A program made the translations under genes and the position numbers. A stretch of 28,139 nucleotides of DNA from Acidimicrobiales bacterium (lineage in GTDB: Bacteria > Actinomycetota > Acidimicrobiia > Acidimicrobiales > CADCTF01). Positions 5,827-28,139 of this stretch are shown piece by piece. Positions within the stretch are counted from its first letter, which is position 1. Every line of letters begins with the position of its first letter. The DNA lies in NCBI GenBank assembly GCA_051002495.1, contig JBPCMH010000223.1:1-28139 (forward strand), read 5' to 3'. The notes under the pieces were generated by a model, which saw only the letters and a list, made by a program, of their open reading frames with translations, did not search any database and had not been told where the DNA came from.

Positions 5827-5907
5827 AACGATCAGTCAGCAAGCAAGTCGCTGACCAGGGATGACACTGCGTCGATGGTCAGGACGGTGTCGTGCTCGAC
5901 CTCTCGG

Positions 5908-7299: not shown

Positions 7300-7377
7300 A
7301 GTGCCCTATTCATCGGCAGCCCCCACCCCCCAACTTGAGGATCAAGGCCAAAGTGTCGGAGGGCCCGTGGCGACTCC

Positions 7378-7383
7378 TAGGAT
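7378..7383 (+). promoter_or_regulatory. Putative -10 element (TAGGAT) for the antiporter-glpD operon
   Basis: TANNNT 8 nt before GTG 7392. Confidence 0.4.
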
Positions 7384-7391
7384 GGCCCGGC

Positions 7392-8702: not shown

Positions 8703-10360
8703 GCCAGCCGGCCGCCCGCACCGCCTTCGACCGGGCGACATCGCTCAAGCGACTCGCAGCCGACCAGTACGACGTGCTCGTGATCGGCGGCGGCATCACC
8801 GGGGCGGGGGTGGCGCTCGACGCGGCCGCGCGCGGGTTGCGCACCGCCTTGGTCGAGAAGGACGACTTCGCATCAGGCACGTCGTCAAAGTCGTCGAAGT
8901 TGATCCACGGCGGGCTCCGGTACCTGCAACAGAAGGAGTACCGCCTGGTCTACGAGAACCTGGCCGAACGGCAGCGCCTTCTCGAGAACGCTCCGCACCT
9001 GGTGAGCCCATTGCCCTTCCTGATCCCGCTGTTCGGCAAGGATGGCGCGGTCAACAAGGCCGTGGCCAAGGCCTACCGCACCGCGCTGTGGCTCTACGAC
9101 CTCACCGGAGGCGTGCGGATCGGGCGCCGGCACTCTCGGGTGACGAAGGAGGAGGTGCTCGAACACTTCCCCACCCTTCGAACTGATCGCCTCGTGGCCG
9201 GGTTCCTCTACTGGGACGCCAGAGCCGACGACGCCAGGCTCACCCTCGCCGTGCTCCGCACCGCGGTGCTCGACCACGGCGCGGTCGCGGTCAACCACGC
9301 ACCAGTCACCGACCTGATCTCCGAGGACGACACCGTGACCGGCGCTCGCCTCGCCGACGGCACCCAAATCAGGGCTGCGGTGGTCGTCAATGCCACCGGC
9401 GTGTGGTCGGATGAGATTCGGGCGATGGCCGAAGGCTCCGACCCCGACTCGATCCGGCCAGCCAAGGGCGTGCACATCACCGTGCCGAGGGCGAAACTGC
9501 CGTGCGACATCGCGTGTGTCGTACCCGTCCCGAAGGATCGCCGGTCGATTTTCGTCGTGCCATGGGGCGACGAGGTCTATCTGGGCACAACCGACACCGA
9601 TTACGACGGACCGCTCGACGATCCCCGCTGCACCGAAGCCGACGTGCGGTACATCGTCGATGCCATCAACACCTTCATCACCGCACCCATCGAGGCCAGC
9701 GACGTCGTGGGCACCTGGGCCGGGCTGCGCCCCCTCGTGAAAGAGACCGACGACGTCCGCACCGCTGACCTGTCCCGTCGGCACAAGGTCATGGTCTCCG
9801 GGGGTCGGCTGGTCACCATCACCGGAGGCAAGCTCACGACCTACCGGAAGATGGCGGCCGACACCGTTGACACCGTCGTCGATCTGCTCCCTAACCGAGC
9901 CCCCAAGTCGGCCACCAAGAAGCTCCGTCTCGTCGGCGCTGTCGGCCATGAGGCACTCACGCGCGATGGCGCCGCCGCTCGGCTTGGGACCGATGCCGCA
10001 ACGCTCGACCACCTGGTCCATCGGTATGGCACCGAGGCTCGCGTGATCCTGGCCATGATCGAGGCCGATCCCGATCTGGGCCGACCCCTGGTCAACGGAC
10101 TCCCCTACTTGCGGGCCGAGGCCGTCTTTGCCGCCCGCTACGAGATGGCGATGACGGTCACCGACGTCTTGAGCCGGCGGACTCGCGGCATCCTGCTCGA
10201 CCGCGACGGTTGTGCCGCAGCGGCCGATGATGTTGCCCGGCTCCTCGCACCGGAGCTCGGCTGGACTGCCGATGAGGCCACCAACCAAGCCGCCGCGTTC
10301 CGCGCCGTGGCCGACGCCGAGCGTCAGACGGCGACCGAAGTCGACTTGGAGCTGACCTGA
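8699..10360 (+). CDS. glpD: FAD-dependent glycerol-3-phosphate dehydrogenase/oxidase
   Basis: DVLVIGGGITGAGVALDAAARG, DFASGTSSKSSKLIHGGLRYL, DDARL, VVNATGVWSD, AKGVHI, GTTDT, WAGLRPL and TITGGKLTTYRKMA. True start is GTG 8699, overlapping the antiporter TGA; the ORF-track start 8222 lies inside the antiporter. Confidence 0.92.
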   Translation: MSQPAARTAFDRATSLKRLAADQYDVLVIGGGITGAGVALDAAARGLRTALVEKDDFASGTSSKSSKLIHGGLRYLQQKEYRLVYENLAERQRLLENAPHLVSPLPFLIPLFGKDGAVNKAVAKAYRTALWLYDLTGGVRIGRRHSRVTKEEVLEHFPTLRTDRLVAGFLYWDARADDARLTLAVLRTAVLDHGAVAVNHAPVTDLISEDDTVTGARLADGTQIRAAVVVNATGVWSDEIRAMAEGSDPDSIRPAKGVHITVPRAKLPCDIACVVPVPKDRRSIFVVPWGDEVYLGTTDTDYDGPLDDPRCTEADVRYIVDAINTFITAPIEASDVVGTWAGLRPLVKETDDVRTADLSRRHKVMVSGGRLVTITGGKLTTYRKMAADTVDTVVDLLPNRAPKSATKKLRLVGAVGHEALTRDGAAARLGTDAATLDHLVHRYGTEARVILAMIEADPDLGRPLVNGLPYLRAEAVFAARYEMAMTVTDVLSRRTRGILLDRDGCAAAADDVARLLAPELGWTADEATNQAAAFRAVADAERQTATEVDLELT

Positions 10361-11862
10361 TGGGCGACGGGCGGCACGAGGGTCCGCCGCTGCCAACGCC
10401 GCGGCACGACGCGCCCACTCGCTTTGAACCGACCGATCTTCCCGCAGGCTTCGCCGATCGACTCGCTCAGGTTTGCCCCACGGTCACCACCGAGCCCGGC
10501 GACCTGGCCGAGGCCGGGCGCGACTGGTGGCCGCTGTCGATCAACTGGGCCGCGGGAGGCGAGCTGCCGGCGCGGCCGGGTGTCATCGCTCGGCCGAGTA
10601 CCACCGCTGAAGTCGCCGCCGTCGTTGGCCTGTGCAACAGCGAGCGGGTCCCGGTCACCGCAGCCGGTGGGCGGAGCGGCGTCTGTGGCTCTGCGGTGCC
10701 GGTGCACGGAGGGGTGTCGCTCGACACAACGGGCCTCGTCGGCATCGAGGCCGTTGACGACGACTCGCTGTTGCTGCAGGTGTGGTCGGGAACCTACGGA
10801 GATGACCTCGAGCGCGACCTGCGCGCCAACCACGGTGTGACGCTCGGGCATTGGCCGCAGTCGATGGCGCTGTCGACCGTCGGCGGTTGGCTGGCCTGCC
10901 GATCAGCCGGTCAGTACTCAAACCGCTACGGGAAGATCGAGGACATGGTGATGGGCCTCGAGGTGGTGCTGGCCGATGGTTCGGTGATCCGCACGGGAGG
11001 CCGCGGGCCACGATCCGCTTCCGGTCCTGACCTCAACCAACTATTCGTGGGCAGCGAAGGCACCCTGGGGGTGATCACCCGCTCCACGCTGCGGGTGCAC
11101 CCGCTGCCCGCGTCCGAACAACGGTCAGCGTGGTCGTTTTCGTCGTTCGCAGAAGGACTCGCGGCCTGTCGCCGAATGCTGCGTCGAGGCGCAACGCCGG
11201 CTGTCCAGCGCCTGTACGACCATCGAGAGTCAAAGCAAAATTTCGATATCGAAGACCGCCATGTACTCATCATCCTCGACGAGGGCGACCCGGCCATCGT
11301 CGATGCTACCATGTCCATCGCGGCTGAAGAGTGTCGAGATGGTCAGCGAGAGGACGACGCCCTGGTCGAGCGGTGGCTGGGGCATCGCAACGACGTCAGC
11401 GGGCTGGGGAGCGCCATTTCCCAAGGTCTCGTCGTCGACACGTGTGAGATCGCCGGGCCGTGGGCGATGTTGCCGGGGCTGTACGAGGCAGCCGTTGAGG
11501 CCGTGAAGGCGGTTCCGGGGGCGTGGACTGCCTCCGCGCACCAGTCTCACGCCTACCTTGACGGCGCCTGCCTCTACTTCACCTTCGCCGGCCAACGGGA
11601 GGACGACACCGACGGGCTCTACCGGGAGGCGTGGGACGCCATCACCAACGCCACCCTGGAGCGGGGAGGGGCTCTCAGCCACCACCACGGCATCGGGCTC
11701 AACCGGGCCCGGTTCATGCAGGAGGCCCTCGGCGACAGCTTCCACACGCTGGTCGCGATCAAGGCAGCACTCGACCCAAACGGGATACTGAACCCCGGCA
11801 AGCTTGGGCTGCCGACCCCGTTCGGCGACGGCGTTGTCTGGCTGGCCGGAGGCGCGGTCTGA
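10360..11862 (+). CDS. FAD-binding oxidoreductase, alkyldihydroxyacetonephosphate synthase (AGPS/ADPS)-like
   Basis: GGRSGVCG, LGHWPQS, STVGGWLACRSAGQYSNRYGKIEDMV, GSEGTLGVIT, SHAYLDGACLYFTF and SHHHGIG match the VAO/PCMH fold and ADPS-type motifs. TGATG coupling on both sides. Confidence 0.85.
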   Translation: MGDGRHEGPPLPTPRHDAPTRFEPTDLPAGFADRLAQVCPTVTTEPGDLAEAGRDWWPLSINWAAGGELPARPGVIARPSTTAEVAAVVGLCNSERVPVTAAGGRSGVCGSAVPVHGGVSLDTTGLVGIEAVDDDSLLLQVWSGTYGDDLERDLRANHGVTLGHWPQSMALSTVGGWLACRSAGQYSNRYGKIEDMVMGLEVVLADGSVIRTGGRGPRSASGPDLNQLFVGSEGTLGVITRSTLRVHPLPASEQRSAWSFSSFAEGLAACRRMLRRGATPAVQRLYDHRESKQNFDIEDRHVLIILDEGDPAIVDATMSIAAEECRDGQREDDALVERWLGHRNDVSGLGSAISQGLVVDTCEIAGPWAMLPGLYEAAVEAVKAVPGAWTASAHQSHAYLDGACLYFTFAGQREDDTDGLYREAWDAITNATLERGGALSHHHGIGLNRARFMQEALGDSFHTLVAIKAALDPNGILNPGKLGLPTPFGDGVVWLAGGAV

Positions 11863-17415: not shown

Positions 17416-18318
17416 TCAGCCGGAGAAGTCCGGTAGGTCCTGTTTTCGCGAAACGACCTCGGCGAACAGGTCACCGTGCGCGGCCACTCGGTCCAACACT
17501 TGACCGGTCTCGAAGACGAGTGCTGTGGGGTCGCCAGCATCGACCTCCGCCCAGGTCACGGGGGTCGAGACGGTCGGCCGGGCTCTGGCGCGCATGGAGT
17601 AAACGGCAATCGTCGTCTTGTGCTGGTCGTTCTGGCTCCAGTCCACGAAGATCTTCCCGGTCCGTTGATCTTTGGCCATGATCGACGTGACGAGCTTGGG
17701 GTGTTGTTTCTCGAGAAGTTGGGCCACGGCCATGGCGAACGACTTCGTGTCGTCATACGTCGTTGTGCCGTTGTTCAGCGGCACGTACACCTGCATGCCG
17801 TTTGACCCGGACACTTTCGGCCACGCCTCCAGTCCGAGTACACCGAAGAGCTCCCTGAGGAGCAGCGCGACCTCGCAGCACTCCGCCAGTCCGGCCGGGG
17901 GCCCAGGATCAAGGTCGAACGCGACCACGGTCGGATGGTCGGGCGCTTCGCCCTGATGCAACTGGGGGTGCAACTCGAGCGCGGCCAACTGAGCCAGCCA
18001 CACGATGGTCGCCGTGCTGTCGGCCACCACGAAGTCGATGGTCCGCTCGCTGTGCCCGCTCCACACGGCCGAGGTGGTGACCCAGTCCGGCTTGTGTGAA
18101 GGCGTGTTCTTCTCGAAGAAGAACTGCTGGTCGACCCCGTTGGGATAGCGCTTGCGGGTGAGCGGTCGTCCGTCGAGGTGAGAGAGCAGCACCGGGGCGA
18201 TGCGGGCGTAGTAGTCGATGACCTCGCCCTTGGTGAAGCCGGTCTCGGGGTAGAGAACCTTGTCGAGGTTGGTCAGGGAGATCTCGTGGCCGTCGATCTC
18301 GACGGTCGCTTTCTTCAC
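17416..18318 (-). CDS. ligD: Stand-alone LigD polymerase (AEP/PrimPol) domain of non-homologous end joining
   Basis: LTNLDKVLYP, TKGEVIDYY, RYPNG, FFEKN, FDLDPG and FVDWSQN. At 300 aa it has no ligase or phosphoesterase domain. GTG start overlaps the ku stop (GTGA). Confidence 0.92.
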   Translation of the reverse strand: MKKATVEIDGHEISLTNLDKVLYPETGFTKGEVIDYYARIAPVLLSHLDGRPLTRKRYPNGVDQQFFFEKNTPSHKPDWVTTSAVWSGHSERTIDFVVADSTATIVWLAQLAALELHPQLHQGEAPDHPTVVAFDLDPGPPAGLAECCEVALLLRELFGVLGLEAWPKVSGSNGMQVYVPLNNGTTTYDDTKSFAMAVAQLLEKQHPKLVTSIMAKDQRTGKIFVDWSQNDQHKTTIAVYSMRARARPTVSTPVTWAEVDAGDPTALVFETGQVLDRVAAHGDLFAEVVSRKQDLPDFSG

Positions 18319-19145
18319 TCGGCGCCGTCGTTCTGTTTGTCGTCTTCCGGCTTGTTGCCCCGGGCCTCCCTGGCCGCGTTGACGCTGGCCTCGAGGGCGG
18401 CCAACAGGTTTTCGACCTTGGCCGGCTCGGCTTCGGTAGCCGGCGCGGTGAAGACCTCACCGGCTGCTTTGGCCTCGATCAGTTCCATGACCTTCTCGCG
18501 ATAGGTGTCTTCGTACTTCTCCGGCTCAAAGTCATCCGCGGTCAAGGAGTCGATGAGCTGCTTGGCCATCTTGACCTCCTTCTCGGTGAGCTCGATGTCG
18601 TCGCCGGGGAGGCCTTCGAGATCATCGGCGTCAACGATCTCATCGGCGTAGTTCATGATCTCGATGATCAGCACACCGTTCTTGACGCGAATCGCGGCGA
18701 GATACTCTTTGGTGCGCATCACAAACTTCGCGATCGCCACCTTGTCGGTCTCTTCGAGGGCCTCGGCCAGCAACTTGTACGGCTTGCCAGCTCGTTGGTC
18801 GGGCACCAGGTAATACGGCTTGTCGAAATACAGCGGGTCGATCTGGTCGAGGTGTACGAACTCCTCGATCTCGATCGTGTGGGTCGCCTTCGGATCGAGC
18901 GATTCGAGCTCGTTTGGCTCGAGCACGACGTATTGGTCGGGCGCGACCTCATAGCCCTTAACGATCTCGTCGTACGGAATCTCTTCGCCGGTGACCGCGC
19001 TGACACGCTTCTGCTTGATGCGGGCGTTGTCCTTGCTGTGCAGCTGGTTGAACCGCACGTCTTTCTGCGACACCGCGGTGAACAGCTTGACCGGGACATT
19101 GACCAAGCCGAAGCTGATGGATCCACTCCAGATGGGGCGAGGCAT
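18315..19145 (-). CDS. ku: NHEJ Ku protein
   Basis: MPRPIWSGSISFGLVNVPVKL, VKGYEV, IEIEEFV, YFDKPYYLVP and YEDTYREKV; minimal Ku with a short acidic tail. Confidence 0.97.
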   Translation of the reverse strand: MPRPIWSGSISFGLVNVPVKLFTAVSQKDVRFNQLHSKDNARIKQKRVSAVTGEEIPYDEIVKGYEVAPDQYVVLEPNELESLDPKATHTIEIEEFVHLDQIDPLYFDKPYYLVPDQRAGKPYKLLAEALEETDKVAIAKFVMRTKEYLAAIRVKNGVLIIEIMNYADEIVDADDLEGLPGDDIELTEKEVKMAKQLIDSLTADDFEPEKYEDTYREKVMELIEAKAAGEVFTAPATEAEPAKVENLLAALEASVNAAREARGNKPEDDKQNDGAE

Positions 19146-19182: not shown

Positions 19183-21021
19183 TTAGCGGTACGACGCGGC
19201 CTGGAGCTCGAACAGCTCGGCGTAGGTTCCACCCTGGGCCACGAGCTCCGCGTGGGTGCCAACCTCGGCAATCCCGTTGTCGGCGATGACCACGATGAGA
19301 TCGGCCATGCGGACCGTCGAGAAGCGGTGGCTGACGAGCAAGGTGATCGCCCCTCGCCCAACGCCGGCGTCGCGTGCCGCGGCGGCATAGCGCTCGAACA
19401 GCTCATGTTCGGTCTGCGGATCGAGCGCGGCGGTCGGTTCGTCGAGCAGGAGCACCAGCGGTTCGGTCCGCATCATGGCGCGGCCGATGGCCAACTTTTG
19501 CCACTGACCGCCAGAGAGCTCGACGCCACCTTCGAAGCTGCGCCCGAGCAGCGTCTCCCCTCCGGCGGGCAGCTCACCGAGAACGCCGTCTGCCGCGGCT
19601 CGGGACAATGCGGAGTCGACAGCGCCGGGTGAATCGGCCTCCGAGAGGTCGCCGATACCCACCGTCTCAGCGGCCATGAGCTCAAACTTGGCGTAGTCCT
19701 GGAATCCGGCCGAGAGCACGTGCCGCCAGTGGTCTACGTCGAAGTCGCGCAGGTCGACACCATCCACGGTGATTTGACCTTCCGTAGGGTCGTAGTACCG
19801 AGCGAGGAGCTTGACCAGCGTCGACTTGCCTGCCCCGTTGTCACCCACGATCGCGACGATCGACCCGGCGGGAATGTGCAGATCGGTCGTCGTGAGCACG
19901 GGCTTGTCGGTGCCCGGATAGACGAAGCTGACCGCCTCGAGCCGTATCCCATCGGTCAACCGTTCAGGGACCGCTTTGGGCTCGGGTGGATGGGTGGCCG
20001 CGACGGCCGTTCGGTGATGAGCCATGAGCCAGGCGTATCGGTCAGCGGACTTGAGCGACTCGATCAGCCACTGCCACATGCTGGTCAACTGCTGCACGCG
20101 CCCTCGCACTTGGGCGCCCAGGCTCACGGTCACGACCACGTCGCCGACGGTTGCCTGGCCGCGGCTCGCTCGGTTCACCATAAGCAGCAGGGCGGCGACG
20201 TAGCCGGCAGCAAACACCGACCACCCGATGGCCGCGACCAGTTGGTAGCGGATGGTCACCCGCAGCGTGTCGGTCTCCATCGACTTCCAGATCCGATCGC
20301 GGTGATCGATGACTTCGTCCTGCAGCCCGAAGACCCGGATCTCCTTGGCCGGCGCGGCCTCGGTTGCCATCTGGAACAGGTGCCGACGGATCCGGCCCCG
20401 CTCGGCCAGGTCTTCCCTGAGCTTCTCCAGCGAAGTGGATGTTCGGTGGCTGATGACGGCACTGGGGATGCCGCACAGAGGGAGCAGCAGGAGGGGCGCA
20501 TCCAGGCGACCCAAGATGGCGACAGTGGTGATGAGCTGGATGACGCCGTTCGCGAGCCAGATCACCGCGCTTGGCGCGCTGGCCAGCGCGCTGCGCTGCT
20601 GGTGCAAGAGCTGCAACTTGTCGGCGTAGTCGGCCCGTTCGAAGTGCTCGAGGGTCGGTGTGGTGGCGGTGAGCCTCACCAGCTCCTCGTCGATGTAGTG
20701 GGTGGTTCGTTCCCTTACCTGCATGTCGAGCGGGAAGCGCAGCGCGCTGCCCCATGACTGCACGATGAACAACCCCACGAAGATGGCGAGGCCCATCACG
20801 GCCCGCTCGCGATCAGCCTGCACGACAGCCTCGGTGAGGATGCCGAGTCCGACCGCGTAACCCGGCGTCGCGACGCCTTGGACGATCCTCAACAGCGTGA
20901 CCGCCGATGAACGCCAAGGATCGGCCTTGAAAGCCGCGGTCACAACGGCTCTGGCGCCCACCCAGCGATCAGCCACCGATGCCAGCCTCTGCGATCTTGG
21001 TTGGGTCGGATTCCGGGTCAT
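19183..21021 (-). CDS. ABC exporter, fused permease/ATP-binding subunit (second half of the pair)
   Basis: TM domain followed by GDNGAGKST, LSGGQWQK, LLLDEPT and SHRFST. Start may instead be GTG 20976. Confidence 0.92.
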   Translation of the reverse strand: MTRNPTQPRSQRLASVADRWVGARAVVTAAFKADPWRSSAVTLLRIVQGVATPGYAVGLGILTEAVVQADRERAVMGLAIFVGLFIVQSWGSALRFPLDMQVRERTTHYIDEELVRLTATTPTLEHFERADYADKLQLLHQQRSALASAPSAVIWLANGVIQLITTVAILGRLDAPLLLLPLCGIPSAVISHRTSTSLEKLREDLAERGRIRRHLFQMATEAAPAKEIRVFGLQDEVIDHRDRIWKSMETDTLRVTIRYQLVAAIGWSVFAAGYVAALLLMVNRASRGQATVGDVVVTVSLGAQVRGRVQQLTSMWQWLIESLKSADRYAWLMAHHRTAVAATHPPEPKAVPERLTDGIRLEAVSFVYPGTDKPVLTTTDLHIPAGSIVAIVGDNGAGKSTLVKLLARYYDPTEGQITVDGVDLRDFDVDHWRHVLSAGFQDYAKFELMAAETVGIGDLSEADSPGAVDSALSRAAADGVLGELPAGGETLLGRSFEGGVELSGGQWQKLAIGRAMMRTEPLVLLLDEPTAALDPQTEHELFERYAAAARDAGVGRGAITLLVSHRFSTVRMADLIVVIADNGIAEVGTHAELVAQGGTYAELFELQAASYR

Positions 21022-22897
21022 CCCAGTAGCGGGATGCCTGCAGGGTGAACAGCCGGGCGTAGGTACCAGCCAGGGCCATCAGAGAGTCGTGGTTGCCGTC
21101 CTCCACGACCCTGCCCTCATCAAGGACGACGATGCGGTCGGCGCGGCGGACAGTCGAGAACCGGTGGGAGATGACGATGGTGGTCAACCCGGCGGTGAGG
21201 TCGAAGAACCGCTCGTAGATCTCGGCCTCGGTGCGCACATCGAGATTCGCGGTCGGCTCGTCAAGCACCAACACTCCTGCCCCGCCTTCGACCGCCATCA
21301 GAGCCCTGGCCAAAGCCAGACGCTGCCACTGGCCGCCGGACAAGTCGGTGCCGCCGGTCATCTGCCTGGACAGCGGCGTGTCCCAGCCCGACTCGAGACC
21401 CTCGATGATGCTCAGGGCGCCGGCGCGATCGGCGGCCCGCTCGACCAAGGCCATGTCCCCGTGATGAGCGGGCGCGCCGTACCCAACGTTGTATCGGGCG
21501 GCCAGTTCCCACCGCTGGAAGTCCTGGAAGATGGCGGCGATGCGGGTTTGCCAATCGGTGGCGTCAAGATCCTCAACCGGGATGCCGTCGACCGTGATGC
21601 GGCCTCCGGTCGGAACGTGAAGCCGGGCGAGCAACTTCACCAGAGTGGTCTTGCCTGCGCCGTTGGCTCCGACAATGGCCAAGCTCTCACCGGCGCGAAT
21701 AGTGAGGTCGAGATCGGTGTAGACGTGGTCGGGACGGCCCGCGTAGCAGAAGCTCACCGACTCAAAACGAATCTCCCGCTTGGGGAGTCCGGTTGCCGGC
21801 GCACCTCCTTCGGAGCGCATCGCGAGCAACTCCTGTTCGAGTTCGAGCATGACTGGAATGGTGGCAACACCCTCGGAGATCATGTGGTCCCAGTCGCCGA
21901 CCGCGCCGAGCGAGCTCGCATTGAAGACTGCGCTCATCGTCATCACGACCACTGCCAACGTGATCTGTCCGTCGATGCCGGCCAGGACGACGGTCGCCAA
22001 GGTGCCGATCTGCACGACGAAAGCCAAGCCGGTCACCAAGAACGTGGTCGGCCTCCCCTTCATCTTCGGCCACACCGTCGCCATCGCCTCGCGCCAGGCC
22101 TGATCGAATCGCCGCCCGATCCACGACTCCAGCGAAAACACGCGCAACTCTTTCGCCGCTTCAGGGGTCAACGCGGCGTCGCGGAAGTAGTTGGACCGCC
22201 GATGAATCTGACCCTTGTCGAAGATCGCGATCGTGACGTCGTCGAACAGCCGGCGCCACCAGGCCCGCTCGAGCAACACGGCAACCGAGATTGCCACGGC
22301 CAGCCACCAGCGGAACCGGCCGATGATCAGGAGGGAGCCAATGCCGGCCAACCGGGTGCTGTACATCTGCACCATGCCGTTGACCGCGCCGCCCGGAGTG
22401 AAGCTGCCGATCAATCCTTCGGCCTTGGCGATCTGATCGAGCACGGCTGGGTCTTCCAGGTGGGCGATCGACGGCGGGGCGAGCGCGGCCGCGGTCAGCC
22501 GGTTGCTGATGTGGCGATCGAACCGTCGGGCCAGGGTGCTCTGAGCCAACCCAAACATCGGCAACAGACCGAGCTGCGCGACATACAACAGAGCCACGAT
22601 CGCGAGCGCCCGGTAGAGCGCCGAGCCAGCACCGCCGTCAAGGCCGTCGGTAACTGCAGCCGGTATACGGCCGACGAGCACGCCAGTGGCGATCGTGAAC
22701 GCCGGGGTGAGGACCGCGCCAACGACCATGCCGACGAGCGTCAGAAACGTGAGGAGCCGGCTGACGCCCGGAAGTTGGCGGACCAGCAGAACCCGGGACG
22801 AACCCCAGATGGCCGATGGCCGCGTGCTGTCGAGGAACGCAGCCACCCTGCCAACGGGGCGCGCGGTCGCATCAGCACCGTTGGAGGGGGTGGGCAT
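20969..22897 (-). CDS. ABC exporter, fused permease/ATP-binding subunit (first half of the pair)
   Basis: TM domain followed by GANGAGKTT, LSGGQWQR, LVLDEPT and SHRFST. Confidence 0.92.
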   Translation of the reverse strand: MPTPSNGADATARPVGRVAAFLDSTRPSAIWGSSRVLLVRQLPGVSRLLTFLTLVGMVVGAVLTPAFTIATGVLVGRIPAAVTDGLDGGAGSALYRALAIVALLYVAQLGLLPMFGLAQSTLARRFDRHISNRLTAAALAPPSIAHLEDPAVLDQIAKAEGLIGSFTPGGAVNGMVQMYSTRLAGIGSLLIIGRFRWWLAVAISVAVLLERAWWRRLFDDVTIAIFDKGQIHRRSNYFRDAALTPEAAKELRVFSLESWIGRRFDQAWREAMATVWPKMKGRPTTFLVTGLAFVVQIGTLATVVLAGIDGQITLAVVVMTMSAVFNASSLGAVGDWDHMISEGVATIPVMLELEQELLAMRSEGGAPATGLPKREIRFESVSFCYAGRPDHVYTDLDLTIRAGESLAIVGANGAGKTTLVKLLARLHVPTGGRITVDGIPVEDLDATDWQTRIAAIFQDFQRWELAARYNVGYGAPAHHGDMALVERAADRAGALSIIEGLESGWDTPLSRQMTGGTDLSGGQWQRLALARALMAVEGGAGVLVLDEPTANLDVRTEAEIYERFFDLTAGLTTIVISHRFSTVRRADRIVVLDEGRVVEDGNHDSLMALAGTYARLFTLQASRYWDDPESDPTKIAEAGIGG

Positions 22898-22970: not shown

Positions 22971-22992
22971 TGTCACGGTTGACTGGCACCCT
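22971..22992 (+). promoter_or_regulatory. Putative DNA-damage-inducible promoter (TGTCAC-N10-CACCCT) upstream of nurA
   Basis: Same geometry as the element before mre11. It resembles the PafBC/RecA-NDp consensus TGTCGG-N10-TANNNT. ATG lies 5 nt downstream. Confidence 0.45.
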
Positions 22993-22997
22993 GGGGC

Positions 22998-24005
22998 ATG
23001 ACCGATCTCGCCGCTGGCCCGGCCGCCAACGCTGCCCCGTTGGAAGTAGCCGCAGCCCGGCTGGCCGCGCTGCTCACCGGTGAGGCCACGGCCATCTCCG
23101 ACCCCGGCAACGGCACCGACCTGGTCTTCGAGTCAGTCATCGGGTTGCGACCGTTGGTCCGCACCGACGCGCCAGCCGATGTCTGGGCCGTCGATGGCGG
23201 GCAAGCGCTCGTGGCCGACGGTCGGTGCCTCCAGGTCGTCGTGACCCGTGCGGGCCGCGTCCGCTTCCAGGACCGTGTGGCGACGTTCGAAGAAGAAGGC
23301 CAGCTGCGACCCGCGCTGCTTGGCCTCGGCGAACAGGCCGACGCCCGGGCCGGGTTGGCACTTGATGGGCTGGCCGCGGACTGCGCGGTTGATCTCAACC
23401 TGCTCCGCGACCGCTGGGAATGGGATGCGGTCGAGCGATCGATCGCCGAGGCTGATCCGGGGGCTCTGGTCCTCGTCGACGGCGATTTGCAACCCGACTG
23501 GCGCATCCCATCGCATTACCTGGCAAGACTCTTCGCCGCGGCATCCTCAAGGGGCGTGATGCTGGCAAGCGTCACTAAGCACTCGTCGCTGGCTCGGGGA
23601 GGCGCTCCGCTTCTGGGTGCTCTCGAGCGGGAGGCGGCCGAGCTGTTCGGTGAGCGGGCGATGTGGTGGGCCCCGGTGGCCCGCACCCGCAGCGATGTCG
23701 AGCCGGGCATCCAGGTTGCGATGGCTCGCCTCGACCCCGATGCCCGCTTCTCGTTCAGAATCGACCTGCCGGGCGACGCCGATCCGGAGATCGTTCTCGG
23801 CTCCCTGTCCGCGTTGTGCGACGACGCGGCCTTTCCTGGCTACCCGTACCCGCTGACGGTCGCCGACCGCTTGGCGGCGTGCCCGGGCTGGGTCCGCCAA
23901 GAAGTACGCATGCAACTCGACGACCTGCTCGATGCAACCGGGGTCCCGTTCGATGTCCGCGAGCGAGCCTTCGCCGACCGCCACCGACTCATGGAGCGCT
24001 CATGA
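22998..24005 (+). CDS. nurA: DNA double-strand break repair nuclease NurA
   Basis: WAVDGG (D66), RWE (E141), LVLVDGDL (D161), ASVTKHS and GYPYPLTVADRLA follow the NurA motif order. The stop overlaps the herA start (ATGA). Confidence 0.85.
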   Translation: MTDLAAGPAANAAPLEVAAARLAALLTGEATAISDPGNGTDLVFESVIGLRPLVRTDAPADVWAVDGGQALVADGRCLQVVVTRAGRVRFQDRVATFEEEGQLRPALLGLGEQADARAGLALDGLAADCAVDLNLLRDRWEWDAVERSIAEADPGALVLVDGDLQPDWRIPSHYLARLFAAASSRGVMLASVTKHSSLARGGAPLLGALEREAAELFGERAMWWAPVARTRSDVEPGIQVAMARLDPDARFSFRIDLPGDADPEIVLGSLSALCDDAAFPGYPYPLTVADRLAACPGWVRQEVRMQLDDLLDATGVPFDVRERAFADRHRLMERS

Positions 24006-25582
24006 CCGAGTCCACGATCAGAGGTCGGCTGTATGGCCGCAACGTCCTAGAGGGCGAGTTCCGGGCCGCGCCGGATGACGACCTGTTCCTCGGCGAGCTG
24101 CTGGTTGGCGTCGACGACTCGACCGGTCGCCGCTATCTCTTCCGCATCACCGACGTCACCTACGGCACCGAACACCGGGAGCCAGGCTGGGCCGAGCGAG
24201 TAGCTGGCACGCTCCTCGCCGACGACGCTCGGGGGGAAGCCGGAGCGCACCCGCTCTATGAGCAGGCGAGGCGCACGTACCGGGTGGCGAAGTGTTCGTG
24301 TCTCGGCTATCTCACACCCGACGGCACCGAGTTCCGCAAACCTAAGAGCCTTCCGACCCAGTTCAGCCAGGTGGTCGCGCCGGAAGCGACCGACTTCGCG
24401 TTCCTCGAAAGTCGCATGGGCGACCTTCCTATCGGGCTGCTGCGATCGGGCGAGACCACCGTCGACTTCTCCGTCGGCATCCCGGGCTCCGCCCTCGCCA
24501 CCCACGTCGGCATATTCGCCACGACCGGCATGGGCAAGTCGAACCTGATGCAAGTGTTGGCTGGCGGCGTCATGCGGGCCAACGGCGCCTACGGCCTGCT
24601 CGTCGTCGACCCCCACGGCGAGTACCGCACCTCGCTGGCCAAACATCCGTGGGCCGGCGAGCGACTGCGAACGTATGCGGCTCGCCGCCTCCCCAACACG
24701 TCGATGCTGCGCGTGAGCCTCGGCGAACTGAGCGTCGACGACCTCCGAACCGCCTACGAGTGGAGCCGACCCCAGGAGGAAGCGCTGTTCGAGCTGGAGC
24801 GGCACTACGGAACCTCTTTCGGCACCGGGCTGGCCTGGCTGCTTCCGTTCTCTCAACTCGACCAACTCCCCGAGTTTCGCGACATCGAGCTCGGCAACCG
24901 GGTCGCGCTCAACACGCTGCAGGTGGTGCACCGCCGGGCGCGGCGCATTGTCGACCTGCCGTGTGTTGCCACCGACGCCAACGTCTCCGTAGGCGGCTCC
25001 GTCGTGCGCGACCTCGAGGACGGCCGCGTGGTCCTCATCGACGTCAGCGGCTTGGGATCGACCGAGGAAGTGCTCGTTGCTTCGTTTCTGACCCGGCGTG
25101 TGCTCGATCACTGGCAGAGCGCCTATCTCGATGAGCCCGACCTTCATGAACGGATGCCGGTGGTGGCGATCGTGCTCGAAGAGGCCCAACGCGTGCTGTC
25201 GCGCAACCGCGACCGCGAGTCCAACGTGTTTCCACGGGTGGCGAGGGAGGGTCGCAAGTTCAAGACGGGCCTGGTGGCCATCACCCAGCAGCCGAAGTTG
25301 CTCGACGATGAGCTGCTCAGCCAGTTCAACACCTTCTTCATCCTGGGCTTGGCCGACGAGAAGGACCGCAACATCCTGCGGTCATCCTCGAAGCAGGACA
25401 TCTCCGCCCTCGGTAATGAGATCCAGACGCTCATGCCCGGCGAGTGCCTGGTGGCGTCGCTGGCCGCGCCGTTCGCCATTCCGGCCCGCATCCATCTGTG
25501 GTCACAACTTTGCAAAGACACACCGCCAGCGCCGGCTCCTCGCCCCTCGCCTGCCGCGAACGTCTCCGCCCTGGTCGACTGA
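24002..25582 (+). CDS. herA: HerA family DNA translocase/helicase (HerA/FtsK-type ATPase)
   Basis: N-terminal beta-rich HAS-barrel-like region, HVGIFATTGMGKSN (Walker A), VVDPHGEY, IVLEEAQRV (Walker B), RVAREGRKF, ITQQP and SQFNT. True start is ATG 24002 (MTESTIRG), not 23663. Confidence 0.92.
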   Translation: MTESTIRGRLYGRNVLEGEFRAAPDDDLFLGELLVGVDDSTGRRYLFRITDVTYGTEHREPGWAERVAGTLLADDARGEAGAHPLYEQARRTYRVAKCSCLGYLTPDGTEFRKPKSLPTQFSQVVAPEATDFAFLESRMGDLPIGLLRSGETTVDFSVGIPGSALATHVGIFATTGMGKSNLMQVLAGGVMRANGAYGLLVVDPHGEYRTSLAKHPWAGERLRTYAARRLPNTSMLRVSLGELSVDDLRTAYEWSRPQEEALFELERHYGTSFGTGLAWLLPFSQLDQLPEFRDIELGNRVALNTLQVVHRRARRIVDLPCVATDANVSVGGSVVRDLEDGRVVLIDVSGLGSTEEVLVASFLTRRVLDHWQSAYLDEPDLHERMPVVAIVLEEAQRVLSRNRDRESNVFPRVAREGRKFKTGLVAITQQPKLLDDELLSQFNTFFILGLADEKDRNILRSSSKQDISALGNEIQTLMPGECLVASLAAPFAIPARIHLWSQLCKDTPPAPAPRPSPAANVSALVD

Positions 25583-25622
25583 GCCAGATCCGGCGAGAAC
25601 GAACCGGCTGACGGGCCTTGGC

Positions 25623-25641
25623 ACCGGCGTGTCACACCGGT
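25623..25641. promoter_or_regulatory. 19-bp imperfect palindrome ACCGGCGTGTCACACCGGT overlapping the TGTCAC element
   Basis: Reverse complement is ACCGGTGTGACACGCCGGT, so 16 of 19 positions match. Confidence 0.4.
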
Positions 25642-25651
25642 CTGCGACCAT
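25630..25651 (+). promoter_or_regulatory. Putative internal DNA-damage-inducible promoter (TGTCAC-N10-GACCAT) upstream of mre11
   Basis: Lies in the only sizeable gap (75 bp) of the four-gene operon; ATG is 6 nt downstream; same hexamer and spacing as before nurA. Confidence 0.45.
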
Positions 25652-25657
25652 GAGGTC

Positions 25658-26773
25658 ATGAAGGTTGCTGCCATCGGCGACGCCCACCTGGGCCGCTCGT
25701 ATCTCAACGTCGTCTCCGACGCGGGCATCAACCAGCGCGAGCACGACTTCGAGTTGTCGTTCTCCGCTGCCGTCGACCTCGCCCTGGCCCAAGAGCCCGA
25801 CGTCATCGTGTGGCTCGGCGACATCTTCGACCATCCTCGACCGAGTTATCGGTCGTATCGGGTCGCCCAGCGGGCGTTGGGCAAGATTCGCGACCACGGC
25901 GTGCCGTTGGCGCTGATCACCGGAAACCACGACACCCCCCGCCTTCCTGGCACCGGCAGCCCGTACTCACCCCTGGCCGATGCCTTCCCGGAGATGCACT
26001 TCGCACACCGGCTCTCCTATGAGCGTTTCGAACTGGCTGGCCTGGTTATCCATGCCGTCCCCCAGATGATGACCGTCGAGGCCACCCTCGACGCCCTAGC
26101 CGAGGCCGACCGCCAGCGCAGCGCCGACAAGTCAAACCTGCTCCTGACCCATCCCCGCATCACCCAGGTCGAGCCGCGCTATGCCGACATCAACGAGATC
26201 GAGGTCGACGCGTCAGTTCTGAAGAGCGACTTCGTGCTGCTTGGCCACTACCACTTCCACACCAAGGTCCGCGAGGGCATCTGGTACGCGGGATCCACCG
26301 ACACCTTCACTTTCGCCGACGACCCTGACAAGGCAAAGGGCATCCTGGTGCTCGACACCGACACCGGCGACTGTCGCCACGTTCCGCTCGCCGATCAGCG
26401 ACCGATGGTCACGCTCGACACCATCGAAGCCATCGGTCTCGGTCACAAGGAGTTGGCCGAGTTGGTGCTCAGCCGCGCCGCCTCCGCACCGGACGGATGC
26501 GTGGCCCGCCTCTACATCGACGGCGTCGACCCGGAGGCCTACCGCCTGCTCGACGTGGAGGAGATTCGGGCGGCCTCGGCGCAGACGCTCCACCTCAAGT
26601 TGGAGCCCTCGTTCATGGGCGTCACGGTGCCGGTCGAGCTGCCAGAGATGGACTCCATGCCCGCCCGGTGGGATCGCTACATGGAAGATCAGGATCTAAC
26701 CGGCTACGACCGAGAGAAGGTCAAGTCGCTCGGGCACGACTACCTGTCCCGCGCGGTGGAGTCGGCCGGCTGA
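25658..26773 (+). CDS. mre11: Mre11/SbcD-type DNA repair metallophosphoesterase nuclease
   Basis: Five phosphoesterase motifs: GDAHLG, GDIFD, GNHD, LTH and GHYH. The stop overlaps the rad50 start (TGATG). Confidence 0.92.
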   Translation: MKVAAIGDAHLGRSYLNVVSDAGINQREHDFELSFSAAVDLALAQEPDVIVWLGDIFDHPRPSYRSYRVAQRALGKIRDHGVPLALITGNHDTPRLPGTGSPYSPLADAFPEMHFAHRLSYERFELAGLVIHAVPQMMTVEATLDALAEADRQRSADKSNLLLTHPRITQVEPRYADINEIEVDASVLKSDFVLLGHYHFHTKVREGIWYAGSTDTFTFADDPDKAKGILVLDTDTGDCRHVPLADQRPMVTLDTIEAIGLGHKELAELVLSRAASAPDGCVARLYIDGVDPEAYRLLDVEEIRAASAQTLHLKLEPSFMGVTVPVELPEMDSMPARWDRYMEDQDLTGYDREKVKSLGHDYLSRAVESAG

Positions 26774-28139
26774 TGCTGATCCATCGCCTCTACCTCCGCA
26801 ACTACCGGGTCTACGAAGACGAGCTCGACCTCGCCCTGCCCGGAGGATTGGTCGGCATCTTCGGGCCCAACGGCGCGGGCAAGAGCGCCCTCATTGAGAG
26901 CATCCGCTGGACGCTGTGGGGCAAGAGCCGCACCGACAAGAAGGAGATCCGCACCTCCGGCGTCAACGCCGATTGCATCACCGAGGTCGAGTTTGAGCAC
27001 GAGGGCCACCTGTACCTGGTCCGTCGCACCATCTCCGGCGTGGGCCACACCGTGAAGGCAGAGGTGCACGCCGACGGCAACATCGTCAACGAGGGCGTGA
27101 ACGACGTGAAGCGCTATCTCGAGTCGGTGCTGGGCATGGACGACACGGCATTTCGCGCGTCGGTCTTCGCCGAACAAAAGCAACTGGCCTCCTTCAGCAC
27201 CGACGTCCGACCCGAGCAGCGTCGCCAGCTCGTGTTGGCGTTGCTTGGGATCACGCCGCTCGAGGGTGCCCGCGACCTGGCCCGGAAGGATGCCAGGGAG
27301 GCCAAAGACCGATACGACCGGCTGCGCGGCTTGCTGGCCGACGTCGAGGCACTGCAGATGGCCGCGGAGATGGCCGACGCCAAGGCGGTCACGGCTGAGG
27401 CTGAGGCCGAGACCGAGGCAGAGGTCGCCGGCACGGCCAAGGAGCGCGTGGGCGGCGCCGAGGCCGCGGTGGAGGCGCTGGAGGCGGCGCGGCGCGAATA
27501 CGACGAGATCGTCGCCGACGGCAAGGCGGCCCGTTCTGAGGCGGAGCGCGCGGCCAAGAAGGTGGATGCCCTCACCATCGAGGTGGCCGAGCTCGACGGG
27601 CTGGAGCAGCGCATCGCGGAGTTGCGGCCGAGAGCCGACGGCCTCGATGCCGCGCAGGCGCGGCTGTCGATGGTGGAGCGCGTCGTCGAAGCCGAGGAGG
27701 CACTGAGGGGCGTCGCCGTCGGCGATGAACCACCGGTTCCCGACACGGATGGCCTGGCCGACGCTCAGCGCGGAGCCGAGCAGGCTGCAGCCGCGTTGGC
27801 CGAGACGATGGGGGCGTTGTTGGGGGCGCGAGAGCAAGTGAAGCGAGTCGAGCTGGCCCTGGCCCGGGCGGCGGAGGCCTCCGCCGATGACGTATGCCCC
27901 ACGTGTGGGCAAGCGCTGGGTGATGCCTTCGCCCAGGTACGGGCCCACCGCCAGGACGAGGTCGAGGCTGAGCGCGACCGGGTCGGCGCCCTTGAGGCAC
28001 GCCAGGTCGACGACAAAGAGGCCGCGGCGGCGGCCGCCGAGGCGTTGCGGCAAGCGACCGCGACAATCCGCCAGGCCGAACAAGCGCGCCGCGCGTGGGA
28101 GCAAGCGGCCACCCGGAAGGCCGAGGTGCAGGCCCGCTT
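26773..28139 (+). CDS. rad50: Rad50/SbcC SMC-like ATPase, N-terminal part (runs off the right edge)
   Basis: Hand translation: MLIHRLYLRNYRVYEDELDLALPGGLVGIFGPNGAGKSALIESIRWTLWG..., Q-loop VFAEQKQ, long Ala/Glu-rich coiled coil and zinc-hook CPTCG at 27895-27909. Open to the window end; absent from the ORF track. Confidence 0.93.
   Translation, partial: MLIHRLYLRNYRVYEDELDLALPGGLVGIFGPNGAGKSALIESIRWTLWGKSRTDKKEIRTSGVNADCITEVEFEHEGHLYLVRRTISGVGHTVKAEVHADGNIVNEGVNDVKRYLESVLGMDDTAFRASVFAEQKQLASFSTDVRPEQRRQLVLALLGITPLEGARDLARKDAREAKDRYDRLRGLLADVEALQMAAEMADAKAVTAEAEAETEAEVAGTAKERVGGAEAAVEALEAARREYDEIVADGKAARSEAERAAKKVDALTIEVAELDGLEQRIAELRPRADGLDAAQARLSMVERVVEAEEALRGVAVGDEPPVPDTDGLADAQRGAEQAAAALAETMGALLGAREQVKRVELALARAAEASADDVCPTCGQALGDAFAQVRAHRQDEVEAERDRVGALEARQVDDKEAAAAAAEALRQATATIRQAEQARRAWEQAATRKAEVQAR

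What the first reader, a model, noticed from the sequence alone, without database searches (positions are those of the whole stretch)
22998..28139. Complete archaeal-style nurA-herA-mre11-rad50 operon in an actinobacterium
Seen: four consecutive co-oriented genes, nurA/herA coupled by ATGA and mre11/rad50 by TGATG, each with its family motifs. Known: the herA-mre11-rad50-nurA operon is the hallmark resection system of thermophilic archaea; bacteria normally use RecBCD, AddAB or AdnAB, with SbcCD encoded separately, and bacterial HerA-NurA has been studied mainly in Deinococcus. The Mre11 N-terminus (QREHDF...F, RPS) reminds me of the Pyrococcus sequence. Inference: a little-studied bacterial version with permuted gene order, either horizontally acquired or ancient. 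I cannot confirm it is undescribed.
Basis: partly seen in the sequence, partly recalled or inferred. Interest (0 to 1): 0.85.

Follow-up and report, generated by a model that had tools for sequence, protein, structure and literature searches.

The report
Archaeal-type DNA-break resection cassette, Acidimicrobiales
An uncultured actinobacterium (order Acidimicrobiales) carries, in place of the usual bacterial SbcCD, a four-gene NurA-HerA-Mre11-Rad50 cassette whose proteins belong to an archaeal subfamily and which sits behind DNA-damage-type promoters; it is a real but not unique example of a known repair machine in a host group where it has not been described.

Summary
Four co-oriented genes lie at 22998-28139: nurA and herA overlap by ATGA, and mre11 and rad50 by TGATG. 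The contig end cuts rad50 after residue 455, just past its CPTC zinc hook. ORF1 misses Pfam's NurA cut-off on its own, but its homologues reach the profile and its predicted fold matches archaeal NurA best.

The order nurA-herA-mre11-rad50 is kept in all 20 actinobacterial loci examined. HerA relatives turn up in at least 591 species-level genomes; the best 80 are all uncultured MAGs.

On the tree, Mre11 lies with a subfamily from Thermoplasmatota and Methanomicrobiales-type archaea, apart from actinobacterial SbcD. No NurA-positive genome sampled has a canonical SbcD. Some Thermoplasmatota show the same gene order.

A RecA-NDp (PafBC)-like box ends 5-6 nt before the start codons of nurA and mre11. 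The same box precedes radA, uvrD-like and DUF222 genes elsewhere in the genome. A sister lineage has LexA-type boxes instead.

Best reading: a damage-inducible end-resection machine, alongside AdnAB-like genes and Ku/LigD.

No paper I could search describes it, and a 2026 review states the opposite. However, this scan has already noted the same cassette many times on other DNA, including Acidimicrobiales. It is a new member of a known kind, of moderate interest.

The parts
22971..22992 (+). Promoter-like box TGTCAC-N11-A-N3-T (RecA-NDp/PafBC-like), ending 5 nt before the nurA ATG. This implies a leaderless or near-leaderless transcript.
   Evidence: There are 4 matches in the window against 0.31 expected. 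The box is conserved before nurA in L013-L015 and L017-L019. The same box precedes radA, a uvrD-like gene, a PD-(D/E)XK nuclease gene and DUF222 genes elsewhere in the genome.
22998..24005 (+). nurA: a 335-aa RNase H-like 5'-3' nuclease. The predicted catalytic residues are D66, E141, D161 and D290; D290 stands where other NurA proteins have His.
   Evidence: The AF2 model (pLDDT 82) has S. solfataricus NurA 2ygk (E 1.4e-9) and P. furiosus NurA 3tai as its top fold matches. All 25 homologues hit PF09376, and NCBI names several homologues NurA.
24002..25582 (+). herA: a 526-aa FtsK/HerA-type DNA translocase, with Walker A GMGKS at residue 176 and Walker B in the ...LEEAQ stretch.
   Evidence: It matches DUF87 at 5.6e-20. 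The best NCBIfam models are archaeal HerA. The best solved relative is S. solfataricus HerA 4d2i at 9.6e-22. Identity to Thermoplasmatota HerA is 42-46%.
25630..25651 (+). Second copy of the TGTCAC-N11-A-N3-T box, ending 6 nt before the mre11 ATG.
   Evidence: It is also found before mre11 in L013 and L018, the relatives that have a herA-mre11 gap.
25658..26773 (+). mre11: a 371-aa phosphoesterase nuclease with motifs I-V intact.
   Evidence: It matches Metallophos at 1.2e-9, with archaeal Mre11 models scoring above sbcd. The best solved relative is M. jannaschii Mre11. On the tree it lies with archaeal Mre11 and apart from actinobacterial SbcD.
26773..28139 (+). rad50, 5' part only (455 codons): the N-terminal ATPase lobe, the ascending coiled coil and the CPTC zinc hook (27895-27906). 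It is cut by the contig end.
   Evidence: It matches AAA_23 at 1e-17 and the archaeal Rad50 model PRK01156 at 105 bits, against 70 bits for sbcc. The hook is conserved at about residue 375 in full-length relatives of 758-806 aa. The C-lobe of relative L018 matches solved Rad50 C-lobes.

Best explanation
This is a chromosomal, DNA-damage-inducible machine for resecting double-strand-break ends, built from four proteins of an archaeal subfamily. Inferred from the archaeal and Deinococcus systems, Mre11-Rad50 would recognise and open or clean DNA ends, with the dimer bridged through the Rad50 zinc hook. A HerA hexamer would then pump the duplex into a NurA dimer, which degrades the 5' strand and leaves a 3' tail for RecA. 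What is shown here: the four identities, intact motifs, conserved gene order and start/stop overlaps, phylogenetic affiliation with archaea, no canonical SbcD found in the carriers sampled, and damage-regulon-type promoter boxes. What is inferred: the complexes, their activities, the induction itself, and that the cassette entered Actinomycetota by transfer between the domains and took over the SbcCD role.
For: Gene order is kept, with overlaps or small gaps at most junctions, in 20 of 20 actinobacterial loci from several families. This NurA type is found in 11 of 12 genomes of the host family, in 21 of 21 genomes of another family (f42), and patchily elsewhere. Mre11 forms a clade with Thermoplasmatota and Halobacteriota Mre11 (support 93) that is separated from actinobacterial SbcD by a 99* branch. 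HerA groups with Thermoplasmatota HerA from loci of the same gene order (100*). None of the 16 NurA-positive genomes in the 151-genome sample has an SbcD above the TIGR00619 cut-off, against 70 of the 135 others. Promoter boxes end 5-6 nt before the start codons of nurA and mre11. The same box stands before radA/sms, a UvrD+HRDC helicase gene, a PD-(D/E)XK nuclease gene, DUF222 genes and an SprT/YgjP-like gene. The genome has a tandem pair of WYL genes resembling pafBC. PafBC acts through RecA-NDp in Actinobacteria according to PMC6789036 and PMC8223512. Loci of family f42 carry GAAC-N4-GTTC boxes before nurA. Defence-system profiles give no match for NurA or Mre11. Ku and LigD lie 3.8 kb away.
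Against: There are no expression or biochemical data, and every carrier I could name is an uncultured MAG. In Deinococcus and Thermus, nurA/herA deletions give modest or even improved damage resistance, so a repair role for the bacterial proteins is contested (PMC9960219). An AdnAB/AddAB-like gene pair is present in the same family, so the cassette is not needed as the only resection enzyme. In Acidimicrobiales the motif III His of NurA is Asp, and whether that form is active is untested. The RecA-NDp consensus was recalled from memory, not read in a held paper. The window lacks the rad50 3' part.
Confidence: 0.75

Rival explanations
1. The cassette is an anti-phage or anti-plasmid defence system. 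HerA-NurA-like pairs such as TdpAB and Rad50-like SMC ATPases such as Lamassu LmuB degrade foreign DNA, and a 2026 review assigns bacterial NurA-HerA mainly to such a role.
For: The only sequence-profile match of the NurA alignment in the PDB is TdpB, the nuclease of a defence pair (E 0.09). HerA and Rad50 give partial matches to defence HerA and LmuB models (about 90 bits each). The review statement is in PMC13748450. Distribution among families of the order is patchy.
Against: NurA and Mre11 match no PADLOC model, and the HerA match covers only the shared ATPase core. The cassette is fixed in whole families (11 of 12 and 21 of 21), in one order and in differing chromosomal contexts. It sits behind the same promoter box as radA and uvrD-type genes, or behind a LexA-type box. 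Canonical SbcD was not found in the sampled genomes that carry it. No mobile-element or defence genes flank it in the window.
Confidence: 0.08
2. The locus holds two independent modules that are merely neighbours. Mre11-Rad50 would do the ordinary SbcCD job of cleaving hairpins and protein-blocked ends at replication forks. NurA-HerA would do something else, such as modulating RecJ or handling DNA during division or transfer, with no joint resection pathway.
For: In the window the two pairs have separate promoter boxes and a 75-nt gap. Some relatives have 0.9-1.5 kb inserted between the pairs (L013, L016). Some archaeal relatives keep mre11-rad50 without herA nearby (L147, L148), or nurA-herA alone (L036). 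In Deinococcus, HerA works with RecJ (PMC4663267).
Against: The four genes stay together in 20 of 20 actinobacterial loci. In many of them herA and mre11 abut or overlap (gaps of -1 to 4 nt in L014, L015, L017 and L019-L024). The archaeal relatives also keep all four together, in two different orders. Both pairs carry the same promoter box.
Confidence: 0.15

Closest known systems
herA-mre11-rad50-nurA operon of thermophilic archaea (Sulfolobus/Saccharolobus, Pyrococcus, Thermococcus)
   Same: It has the same four protein families encoded side by side. HerA's best solved relative is S. solfataricus HerA, and the NurA model's best fold matches are S. solfataricus and P. furiosus NurA. The presumed joint role in 5' strand resection is also the same.
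   Different: The gene order here is nurA-herA-mre11-rad50. Sequence identity is low: all NCBIfam archaeal equivalog models score far below their cut-offs. Rad50 is shorter (about 760 aa). NurA lacks the euryarchaeal M domain, and in Acidimicrobiales motif III has Asp for His. The host is a bacterium, and the promoters are of actinobacterial damage-regulon type.
The same cassette family in mesophilic Euryarchaeota: Thermoplasmatota MAGs (nurA-herA-mre11-rad50) and the Methanomicrobiales-type phylum (mre11-rad50-nurA-herA)
   Same: These are the closest relatives found outside the phylum. Thermoplasmatota HerA is 42-46% and Mre11 27-33% identical over the full length, in the same gene order. 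Mre11 from both archaeal phyla joins the cluster's clade, and Thermoplasmatota HerA its HerA clade. The Thermoplasmatota contigs have the same G+C as the ribosomal-protein contigs of their bins.
   Different: They belong to another domain of life. The Methanomicrobiales-type loci have the two gene pairs in the other order and HerA only 32-34% identical. As far as I could find, these archaeal loci have not been characterised experimentally either.
Deinococcus radiodurans / Thermus thermophilus NurA-HerA (PDB 7F6D, 7WRW as cited in earlier notes; PMC9960219)
   Same: It is a bacterial nurA-herA pair encoded as an operon, and a HerA hexamer plus NurA dimer forms an ATP-driven nuclease.
   Different: In those bacteria the pair is not linked to mre11-rad50/sbcCD. 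Neither protein appeared among the sequence or fold matches of the window's proteins. The review describes their DG motifs as degenerate, whereas here both DG motifs are intact.
Bacterial SbcCD (E. coli, and canonical SbcD/SbcC of other Actinomycetota) and the bacterial-type X-sbcD-sbcC-nurA cassette seen in the same class (G087)
   Same: The Mre11/SbcD phosphoesterase and the Rad50/SbcC zinc-hook ATPase are homologous and are encoded as a coupled pair.
   Different: The window's Mre11 scores 45-48 bits against the sbcd model (cut-off 77.65) and only over its first 90 residues. It lies across a 99* branch from actinobacterial SbcD. The HerA-position protein and the NurA of the G087 cassette show no meaningful similarity to the window's proteins.

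Membership tests
NurA (PF09376) | Score at or above Pfam's gathering cut-off of 21 bits | tested here: not met
   The window protein scores 15.5 bits, E 0.013, and has no hit at E 0.01. However, all 25 homologues of 65-78% identity hit PF09376 at E<=1, the best at 4.9e-7, and several carry the precomputed domain and the NCBI name NurA.
NurA (PF09376) | RNase H-like NurA fold | tested here: met
   The AF2 model has pLDDT 81.9 and pTM 0.80. The top Foldseek PDB matches are 2ygk (NurA, S. solfataricus; E 1.4e-9, TM 0.54/0.56) and 3tai (NurA, P. furiosus; E 5.6e-6), followed by endonuclease V and Argonaute PIWI domains.
NurA (PF09376) | Motif I and motif II 'DG' plus the catalytic Glu | tested here: met
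   VWAVDGGQ (D66), RWEWD (E141) and LVLVDGDL (D161) are invariant in the homologue alignment and align with the archaeal sequences. The motif definitions come from PMC13748450.
NurA (PF09376) | Motif III catalytic His (LxxAHxxxA) | tested here: not met
   The window and all seven Acidimicrobiales relatives have Asp (YPLTVADRLAAC). The other actinobacterial lineages and the archaeal relatives have His. An acidic residue at this position is compatible with RNase H-like catalysis, but activity is untested.
NurA (PF09376) | Dimeric ring with Mn2+-dependent 5'-3' exo/endonuclease activity, stimulated by HerA | not testable with these tools
   This needs purified proteins.
HerA (FtsK/HerA clade, DUF87) | DUF87 central ATPase domain with Walker A and Walker B | tested here: met
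   PF01935 matches at 5.6e-20, 72.8 bits (cut-off 23.2). GMGKS lies at residue 176, and the EEAQ Walker B is invariant.
HerA (FtsK/HerA clade, DUF87) | Equivalog-level match to characterised archaeal HerA (NF040937, NF040819) | tested here: not met
   The scores are 93.7 and 72.9 bits against cut-offs of 800 and 970. They are the best-scoring models, and 4d2i (S. solfataricus HerA) is the best solved relative at 9.6e-22.
HerA (FtsK/HerA clade, DUF87) | N-terminal HAS barrel that docks NurA | tested here: inconclusive
   No HAS-barrel family was reported at E 0.01. The N-terminal 140 residues are well conserved, including in the archaeal relatives. No structure was predicted for HerA.
Mre11 (archaeal/eukaryotic type) versus SbcD | Five phosphoesterase motifs | tested here: met
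   GDAH at residue 7, GDIFD at 54, GNHD at 89, THP at 164 and GHYH at 196. Metallophos matches at 1.2e-9.
Mre11 (archaeal/eukaryotic type) versus SbcD | Phylogenetic position with archaeal Mre11 and outside bacterial SbcD | tested here: met
   A profile of the cluster's Mre11 scores 250-395 bits on 37 archaeal proteins over their full length, 49-110 bits on other archaeal Mre11, and 57-92 bits on actinobacterial SbcD. On the tree a 56-row clade with archaea has support 93, and SbcD is split off at 99*.
SbcD (TIGR00619) | Score at or above the curated cut-off of 77.65 bits | tested here: not met
   The scores are 47.9 and 45.4 bits, covering only positions 1-88 of the model.
Rad50/SbcC | N-terminal Walker A, Q-loop, coiled coil and central CxxC zinc hook | tested here: met
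   GPNGAGKS lies at residue 31, FAEQ at 132 and CPTCG at 375. AAA_23 matches at 1e-17, and the best NCBIfam model is archaeal Rad50 PRK01156 at 105 bits.
Rad50/SbcC | C-terminal lobe with signature motif, Walker B, D-loop and H-loop | tested here: inconclusive
   This part is not in the window because of the contig end, and it was not found elsewhere in the MAG. In relative L018, residues 619-743 align with solved Rad50 C-lobes at about 1e-14.
Thermophile herA-mre11-rad50-nurA operon | Gene order herA-mre11-rad50-nurA | tested here: not met
   The order here is nurA-herA-mre11-rad50, as in 20 of 20 actinobacterial loci.
Known anti-phage systems (PADLOC-DB 2.0) | Full-length matches of the components to the models of one defence system | tested here: not met
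   NurA and Mre11 have no match. HerA matches only over the ATPase core (residues 339-501). Rad50 gives generic SMC-like matches.

The most novel reading that the evidence does not exclude
Several actinobacterial lineages swapped the bacterial SbcCD for a complete four-gene resection cassette of an archaeal subfamily, acquired by more than one exchange between the domains. They then wired it into their own DNA-damage regulons: PafBC/RecA-NDp in Acidimicrobiales and LexA in another family. On this reading it works as a second long-range resection machine beside AdnAB. That would be a clear counter-example to the published view that bacterial nurA has no stable link to herA, mre11 and rad50.
Probability: 0.5. 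Interest if true: 0.6.

Novelty: new member of a known kind. Interest (0 to 1): 0.45.

Why it matters
The HerA-NurA/Mre11-Rad50 pathway is treated as the archaeal answer to end resection. The role of the few studied bacterial NurA-HerA pairs is disputed, and they are not linked to Mre11-Rad50. Here a large, mostly uncultured part of the Actinomycetota keeps all four genes as one unit. No canonical SbcCD was found in the carriers sampled, the cassette carries damage-regulon promoters, and AdnAB-like and Ku/LigD systems are also present. This offers a bacterial setting in which to ask how the four proteins cooperate and how pathway choice between NHEJ, AdnAB and HerA-NurA works. It also documents the sharing of a whole repair cassette between archaea and bacteria. 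The practical limit is that every carrier I could name is an uncultured MAG.

Tried and rejected
1. A direct sequence search of ORF1 against the PDB found nothing relevant. The profile search gave only a weak TdpB match. The fold search was needed to identify ORF1.
2. I looked for the missing rad50 3' part in the MAG and did not find it.
All were actinobacterial MAGs, so it gave no view of other phyla.
4. A HerA search from the complete genome G337, meant to name that lineage, returned only 'Actinomycetota bacterium' labels.
5. The papers by Constantinesco 2004, Iyer 2004 and Cheng 2015 are not held, so an early mention of bacterial four-gene clusters cannot be excluded.
6. I tried to show that the Thermoplasmatota contigs are archaeal from their neighbouring genes. 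The result was uninformative, and ribosomal L7Ae/L30e genes lie on other contigs. Matching G+C is the only support beyond 19 of 61 genomes having the gene.
7. The defence reading was tested with PADLOC and judged unlikely.
8. The idea that the cassette is the sole resection system was rejected because of the AdnAB/AddAB-like pairs.
9. A single origin of all actinobacterial cluster Mre11 was tested and rejected at p-AU 0.017. The HerA tree does not show the same split, so this remains unsettled.

Full report
**What is in the window**

The window is the whole of contig C223 of a 3.18-Mb, 503-contig MAG that is 78% complete. Close homologues of its proteins are labelled Acidimicrobiales, Acidimicrobiia or Actinomycetota bacterium.

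From 22998 to the contig end there are four co-oriented ORFs:
- ORF1: 22998-24005, 335 aa.
- herA: 24002-25582, 526 aa.
- mre11: 25658-26773, 371 aa.
- rad50: 26773-28137+, 455 codons, open at the contig end.

herA and mre11 are 75 nt apart. rad50 is not complete. It runs through the N-terminal ATPase lobe, the coiled coil and a CPTCG zinc hook at residue 375. Full-length relatives have 758-806 residues with the hook at about 375. The missing part was not found elsewhere in the MAG.

**Identities**

- HerA matches DUF87 at 5.6e-20.
- Mre11 matches Metallophos at 1.2e-9.
- Rad50 matches AAA_23 at 1e-17.
- In NCBIfam the best-scoring models for all three are archaeal ones (HerA_Thermprot, Mre11_Sulfo, Rad50 PRK01156). 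They score above sbcd and sbcc, but all lie far below their equivalog cut-offs.
- By sequence, the best solved relatives are S. solfataricus HerA (9.6e-22), M. jannaschii Mre11 (3e-15) and M. jannaschii Rad50 (2e-17). E. coli SbcC reaches 2.4e-10, and E. coli SbcD is not found.

ORF1 gave no Pfam hit at E 0.01 and scores 15.5 bits for PF09376, below the 21-bit cut-off. Even so, all 25 aligned homologues reach that profile, the best at 4.9e-7, and NCBI names several of them NurA. An AlphaFold model built on the alignment (pLDDT 82) has S. solfataricus NurA (E 1.4e-9, TM 0.54-0.56) and P. furiosus NurA as its top PDB matches, followed by other RNase H-like nucleases.

Both 'DG' motifs and the glutamate are intact (D66, E141, D161). 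The motif III histidine is Asp in the window and in all seven Acidimicrobiales relatives. It is His in the other actinobacterial lineages and in the archaeal relatives (motifs as defined in PMC13748450). The catalytic motifs of Mre11, HerA and the Rad50 N-lobe are all present.

**Conservation and distribution**

- This NurA type is found in 11 of 12 other genomes of the host family and in 9 of the 28 other families of the order that were sampled.
- In an even sample of 300 genomes of the phylum it occurs in 31. One family (f42) has it in 21 of 21 genomes, another in 3 of 4, and the rest are scattered.
- In every locus I fetched, 7 from the order and 13 from other families, the order is nurA-herA-mre11-rad50. 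Most junctions are overlaps or gaps of a few bases; two loci have insertions of about 1 kb between the pairs.
The best 80 are all uncultured actinobacterial MAGs.

**Relation to bacterial SbcCD**

Canonical SbcD, meaning a score above the TIGR00619 cut-off, occurs in 70 of 151 sampled Actinomycetota. None of the 16 NurA-positive genomes in that sample has one. Where one of these genomes shows an sbcd match at all, it is a weak N-terminal one, and where I could place it, it lies in the cluster's own mre11. The window's genome likewise has only the cluster gene.

Within the same class there are also genomes with plain sbcDC. One (G087) has a different cassette: a 555-aa ORF, then sbcD, sbcC and a NurA-family gene. 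Its outer proteins show no meaningful similarity to the window's HerA and NurA. The window's cassette is therefore a type of its own and not the common bacterial one.

**Relation to archaea**

At 50% clustering, the NurA profile finds 764 representative clusters. The named representatives include Thermoplasmatota and Methanomicrobiales archaea, a Zixibacteria bacterium and an actinobacterial MAG.

Going into those archaeal genomes and their phyla gave a bimodal result:
- 19 of 61 Thermoplasmatota and 18 of 81 genomes of the Methanomicrobiales-type phylum have an Mre11 that is 27-33% identical to the window's over its full length.
- The other genomes give only weak N-terminal matches or none.

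High-GC Thermoplasmatota contigs carry nurA-herA-mre11-rad50 in the same order, with HerA 42-46% identical. The Methanomicrobiales-type genomes, some of them single-contig, carry mre11-rad50-nurA-herA with HerA 32-34% identical. The Thermoplasmatota cluster contigs have the same G+C as the ribosomal-protein contigs of their bins. That argues against misbinning but does not prove it.

In an Mre11 tree, actinobacterial SbcD is split off at 99*. The cluster's Mre11 joins the two archaeal groups in a 56-row clade (support 93). Sixteen actinobacterial sequences, including the window's, form one clade (100*). Three sequences from small-genome families fall among the archaeal ones. Holding all 19 together is rejected at p-AU 0.017, although I named the group after seeing the tree.

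The HerA tree unites the actinobacterial and Thermoplasmatota loci (100*) against the Methanomicrobiales type, but it does not reproduce the split of the three outliers. The direction and number of transfers therefore remain open. An archaeal origin is the more economical reading, because the next outgroups are other archaeal Mre11 sequences.

**Regulation**

The box TGTCAC-N11-A-N3-T occurs 4 times in the window against 0.31 expected. Two copies end 5 and 6 nt before the ATG of nurA and of mre11, which implies leaderless or near-leaderless transcripts. The box is conserved before nurA in six of the seven relatives from the order, and before mre11 in the relatives that have a herA-mre11 gap.

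Genome-wide there are 60 matches, 26 of them directly before an ORF start; a reversed control pattern gives 11 and 2. The ORFs behind the box include the following:
- RadA/Sms;
- a UvrD-type helicase with an HRDC domain;
- a PD-(D/E)XK nuclease;
- several DUF222 proteins;
- an SprT/YgjP-like peptidase.

This resembles the RecA-NDp motif of the PafBC regulon. The consensus tTGTCRgtg-N8-TAnnnT (Gamulin 2004) is recalled from my own knowledge. The regulon itself, and its spread in Actinobacteria, are described in PMC6789036 and PMC8223512. The genome has a tandem pair of WYL-domain genes.

In family f42 the region before nurA instead carries GAAC-N4-GTTC, a LexA-type box, in four loci. Two different damage-response elements in two lineages point to a repair function.

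**Alternatives**

Defence was considered for three reasons: the only PDB profile match of NurA is TdpB, defence-type HerA models match the ATPase core, and a 2026 review assigns bacterial NurA-HerA to defence. Against it, NurA and Mre11 match no PADLOC model. The cassette is fixed in whole families, it shares its promoter type with radA and uvrD-like genes, and the window shows no mobile or defence neighbours.

The second rival is that the two pairs are merely neighbours with separate jobs. The separate promoters and the occasional insertions are compatible with this. The strict co-occurrence, and the abutting herA-mre11 junctions in many loci, argue against it.

The cassette is not the only resection system. 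Adjacent ORFs of about 1000 aa, each with a C-terminal PD-(D/E)XK domain (the AdnAB/AddAB layout; their helicase domains were not checked), occur in two relatives of the same family and in G337. One such ORF is on a short contig of this MAG. Ku and the LigD polymerase domain lie 3.8 kb upstream on the other strand.

**What is known**

Reviews mention NurA/HerA homologues in Actinobacteria in passing (PMC8708640). A 2023 structural paper says bacterial NurA-HerA occurs in only a few bacteria (PMC9960219). [quoted passage not shown] I found no paper describing a bacterial four-gene cluster, but three key older papers are not held.

Within this scan the same cassette has been noted many times on other DNA. 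That includes several Acidimicrobiales windows with follow-ups that reached similar verdicts, and other phyla.

**Verdict**

- rad50 is truncated in the window.
- The gene order is shared with archaea.
- The cassette coexists with AdnAB-like genes.

This is a new member of a known kind. It is well supported as a damage-inducible end-resection cassette of archaeal affinity that stands in for SbcCD. It is of moderate interest because it is undescribed in the literature I could read, yet widespread and made of known parts.

Noticed in passing
window 17416-19145 (- strand): A LigD primase-polymerase domain gene (300 aa) and a Ku gene (276 aa) lie 3.8 kb upstream of nurA on the other strand. Two ABC-transporter genes (19183-22897) separate them from nurA. 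An NHEJ module therefore sits close to the resection cassette.
   Followed up: partly
G000 contigs C207, C430, C4, C445, C47, C354, C376, C460, C301 and others: The box TGTCAC-N11-A-N3-T sits 2-11 nt before 26 ORF starts genome-wide. These include RadA/Sms, a UvrD+HRDC helicase, a PD-(D/E)XK nuclease, an SprT/YgjP-like peptidase, two confirmed DUF222 proteins, and a multi-copy family beginning MADRVVRVKGEV whose one scanned copy gave no Pfam hit. It looks like a PafBC/RecA-NDp-type regulon of leaderless genes. A tandem pair of WYL genes lies at C72:3649-4781.
   Followed up: partly
L014, L018, L019 (before nurA); L013, L018 (before mre11): A near-palindrome of the form ATCACAACGTTGTAAT lies just 5' of the TGTCAC box in several relatives, as if a second regulator bound there. 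It is absent from the window.
   Followed up: no
L027, L030, L031, L032 (family f42), upstream of nurA: GAAC-N4-GTTC boxes of LexA/Cheo type precede nurA in this other actinobacterial family. They take the place of the TGTCAC box.
   Followed up: partly
window 23865-23867 (NurA D290) and relatives L013-L019: In Acidimicrobiales only, the conserved motif III histidine of NurA is replaced by aspartate. All other actinobacterial and archaeal relatives examined keep His.
   Followed up: partly
L224 (G087:C1:1203000-1220000), 4401-10498: A genome of the same class has a different cassette: a 555-aa ORF with no Pfam hit, then sbcD (with the SbcD_C domain), sbcC (770 aa) and a NurA-family gene (PF09376, 22.9 bits). 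Its outer proteins are unrelated in sequence to the window's HerA and NurA.
   Followed up: partly
L030 (G331:C22:59000-73000): In this relative herA and rad50 are each split into two frames. These are either frameshift mutations or assembly errors.
   Followed up: no
G005:C24:32436-36733; G003:C128:2217-6523; G337:C1:411183-415171; G000:C222:2189-2914: Pairs of adjacent ORFs of about 1000 aa, each ending in a PD-(D/E)XK nuclease domain (the AdnAB/AddAB layout), coexist with the cassette. No such pair was found in G040, which is 98% complete.
   Followed up: partly
L026, L028, L029 (families f41, f91, f64; genomes of 1.3-1.8 Mb): The Mre11 proteins of these small-genome Actinomycetota sit among archaeal sequences and not with the main actinobacterial clade. 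This hints at separate acquisitions, although their HerA does not show the same placement.
   Followed up: partly
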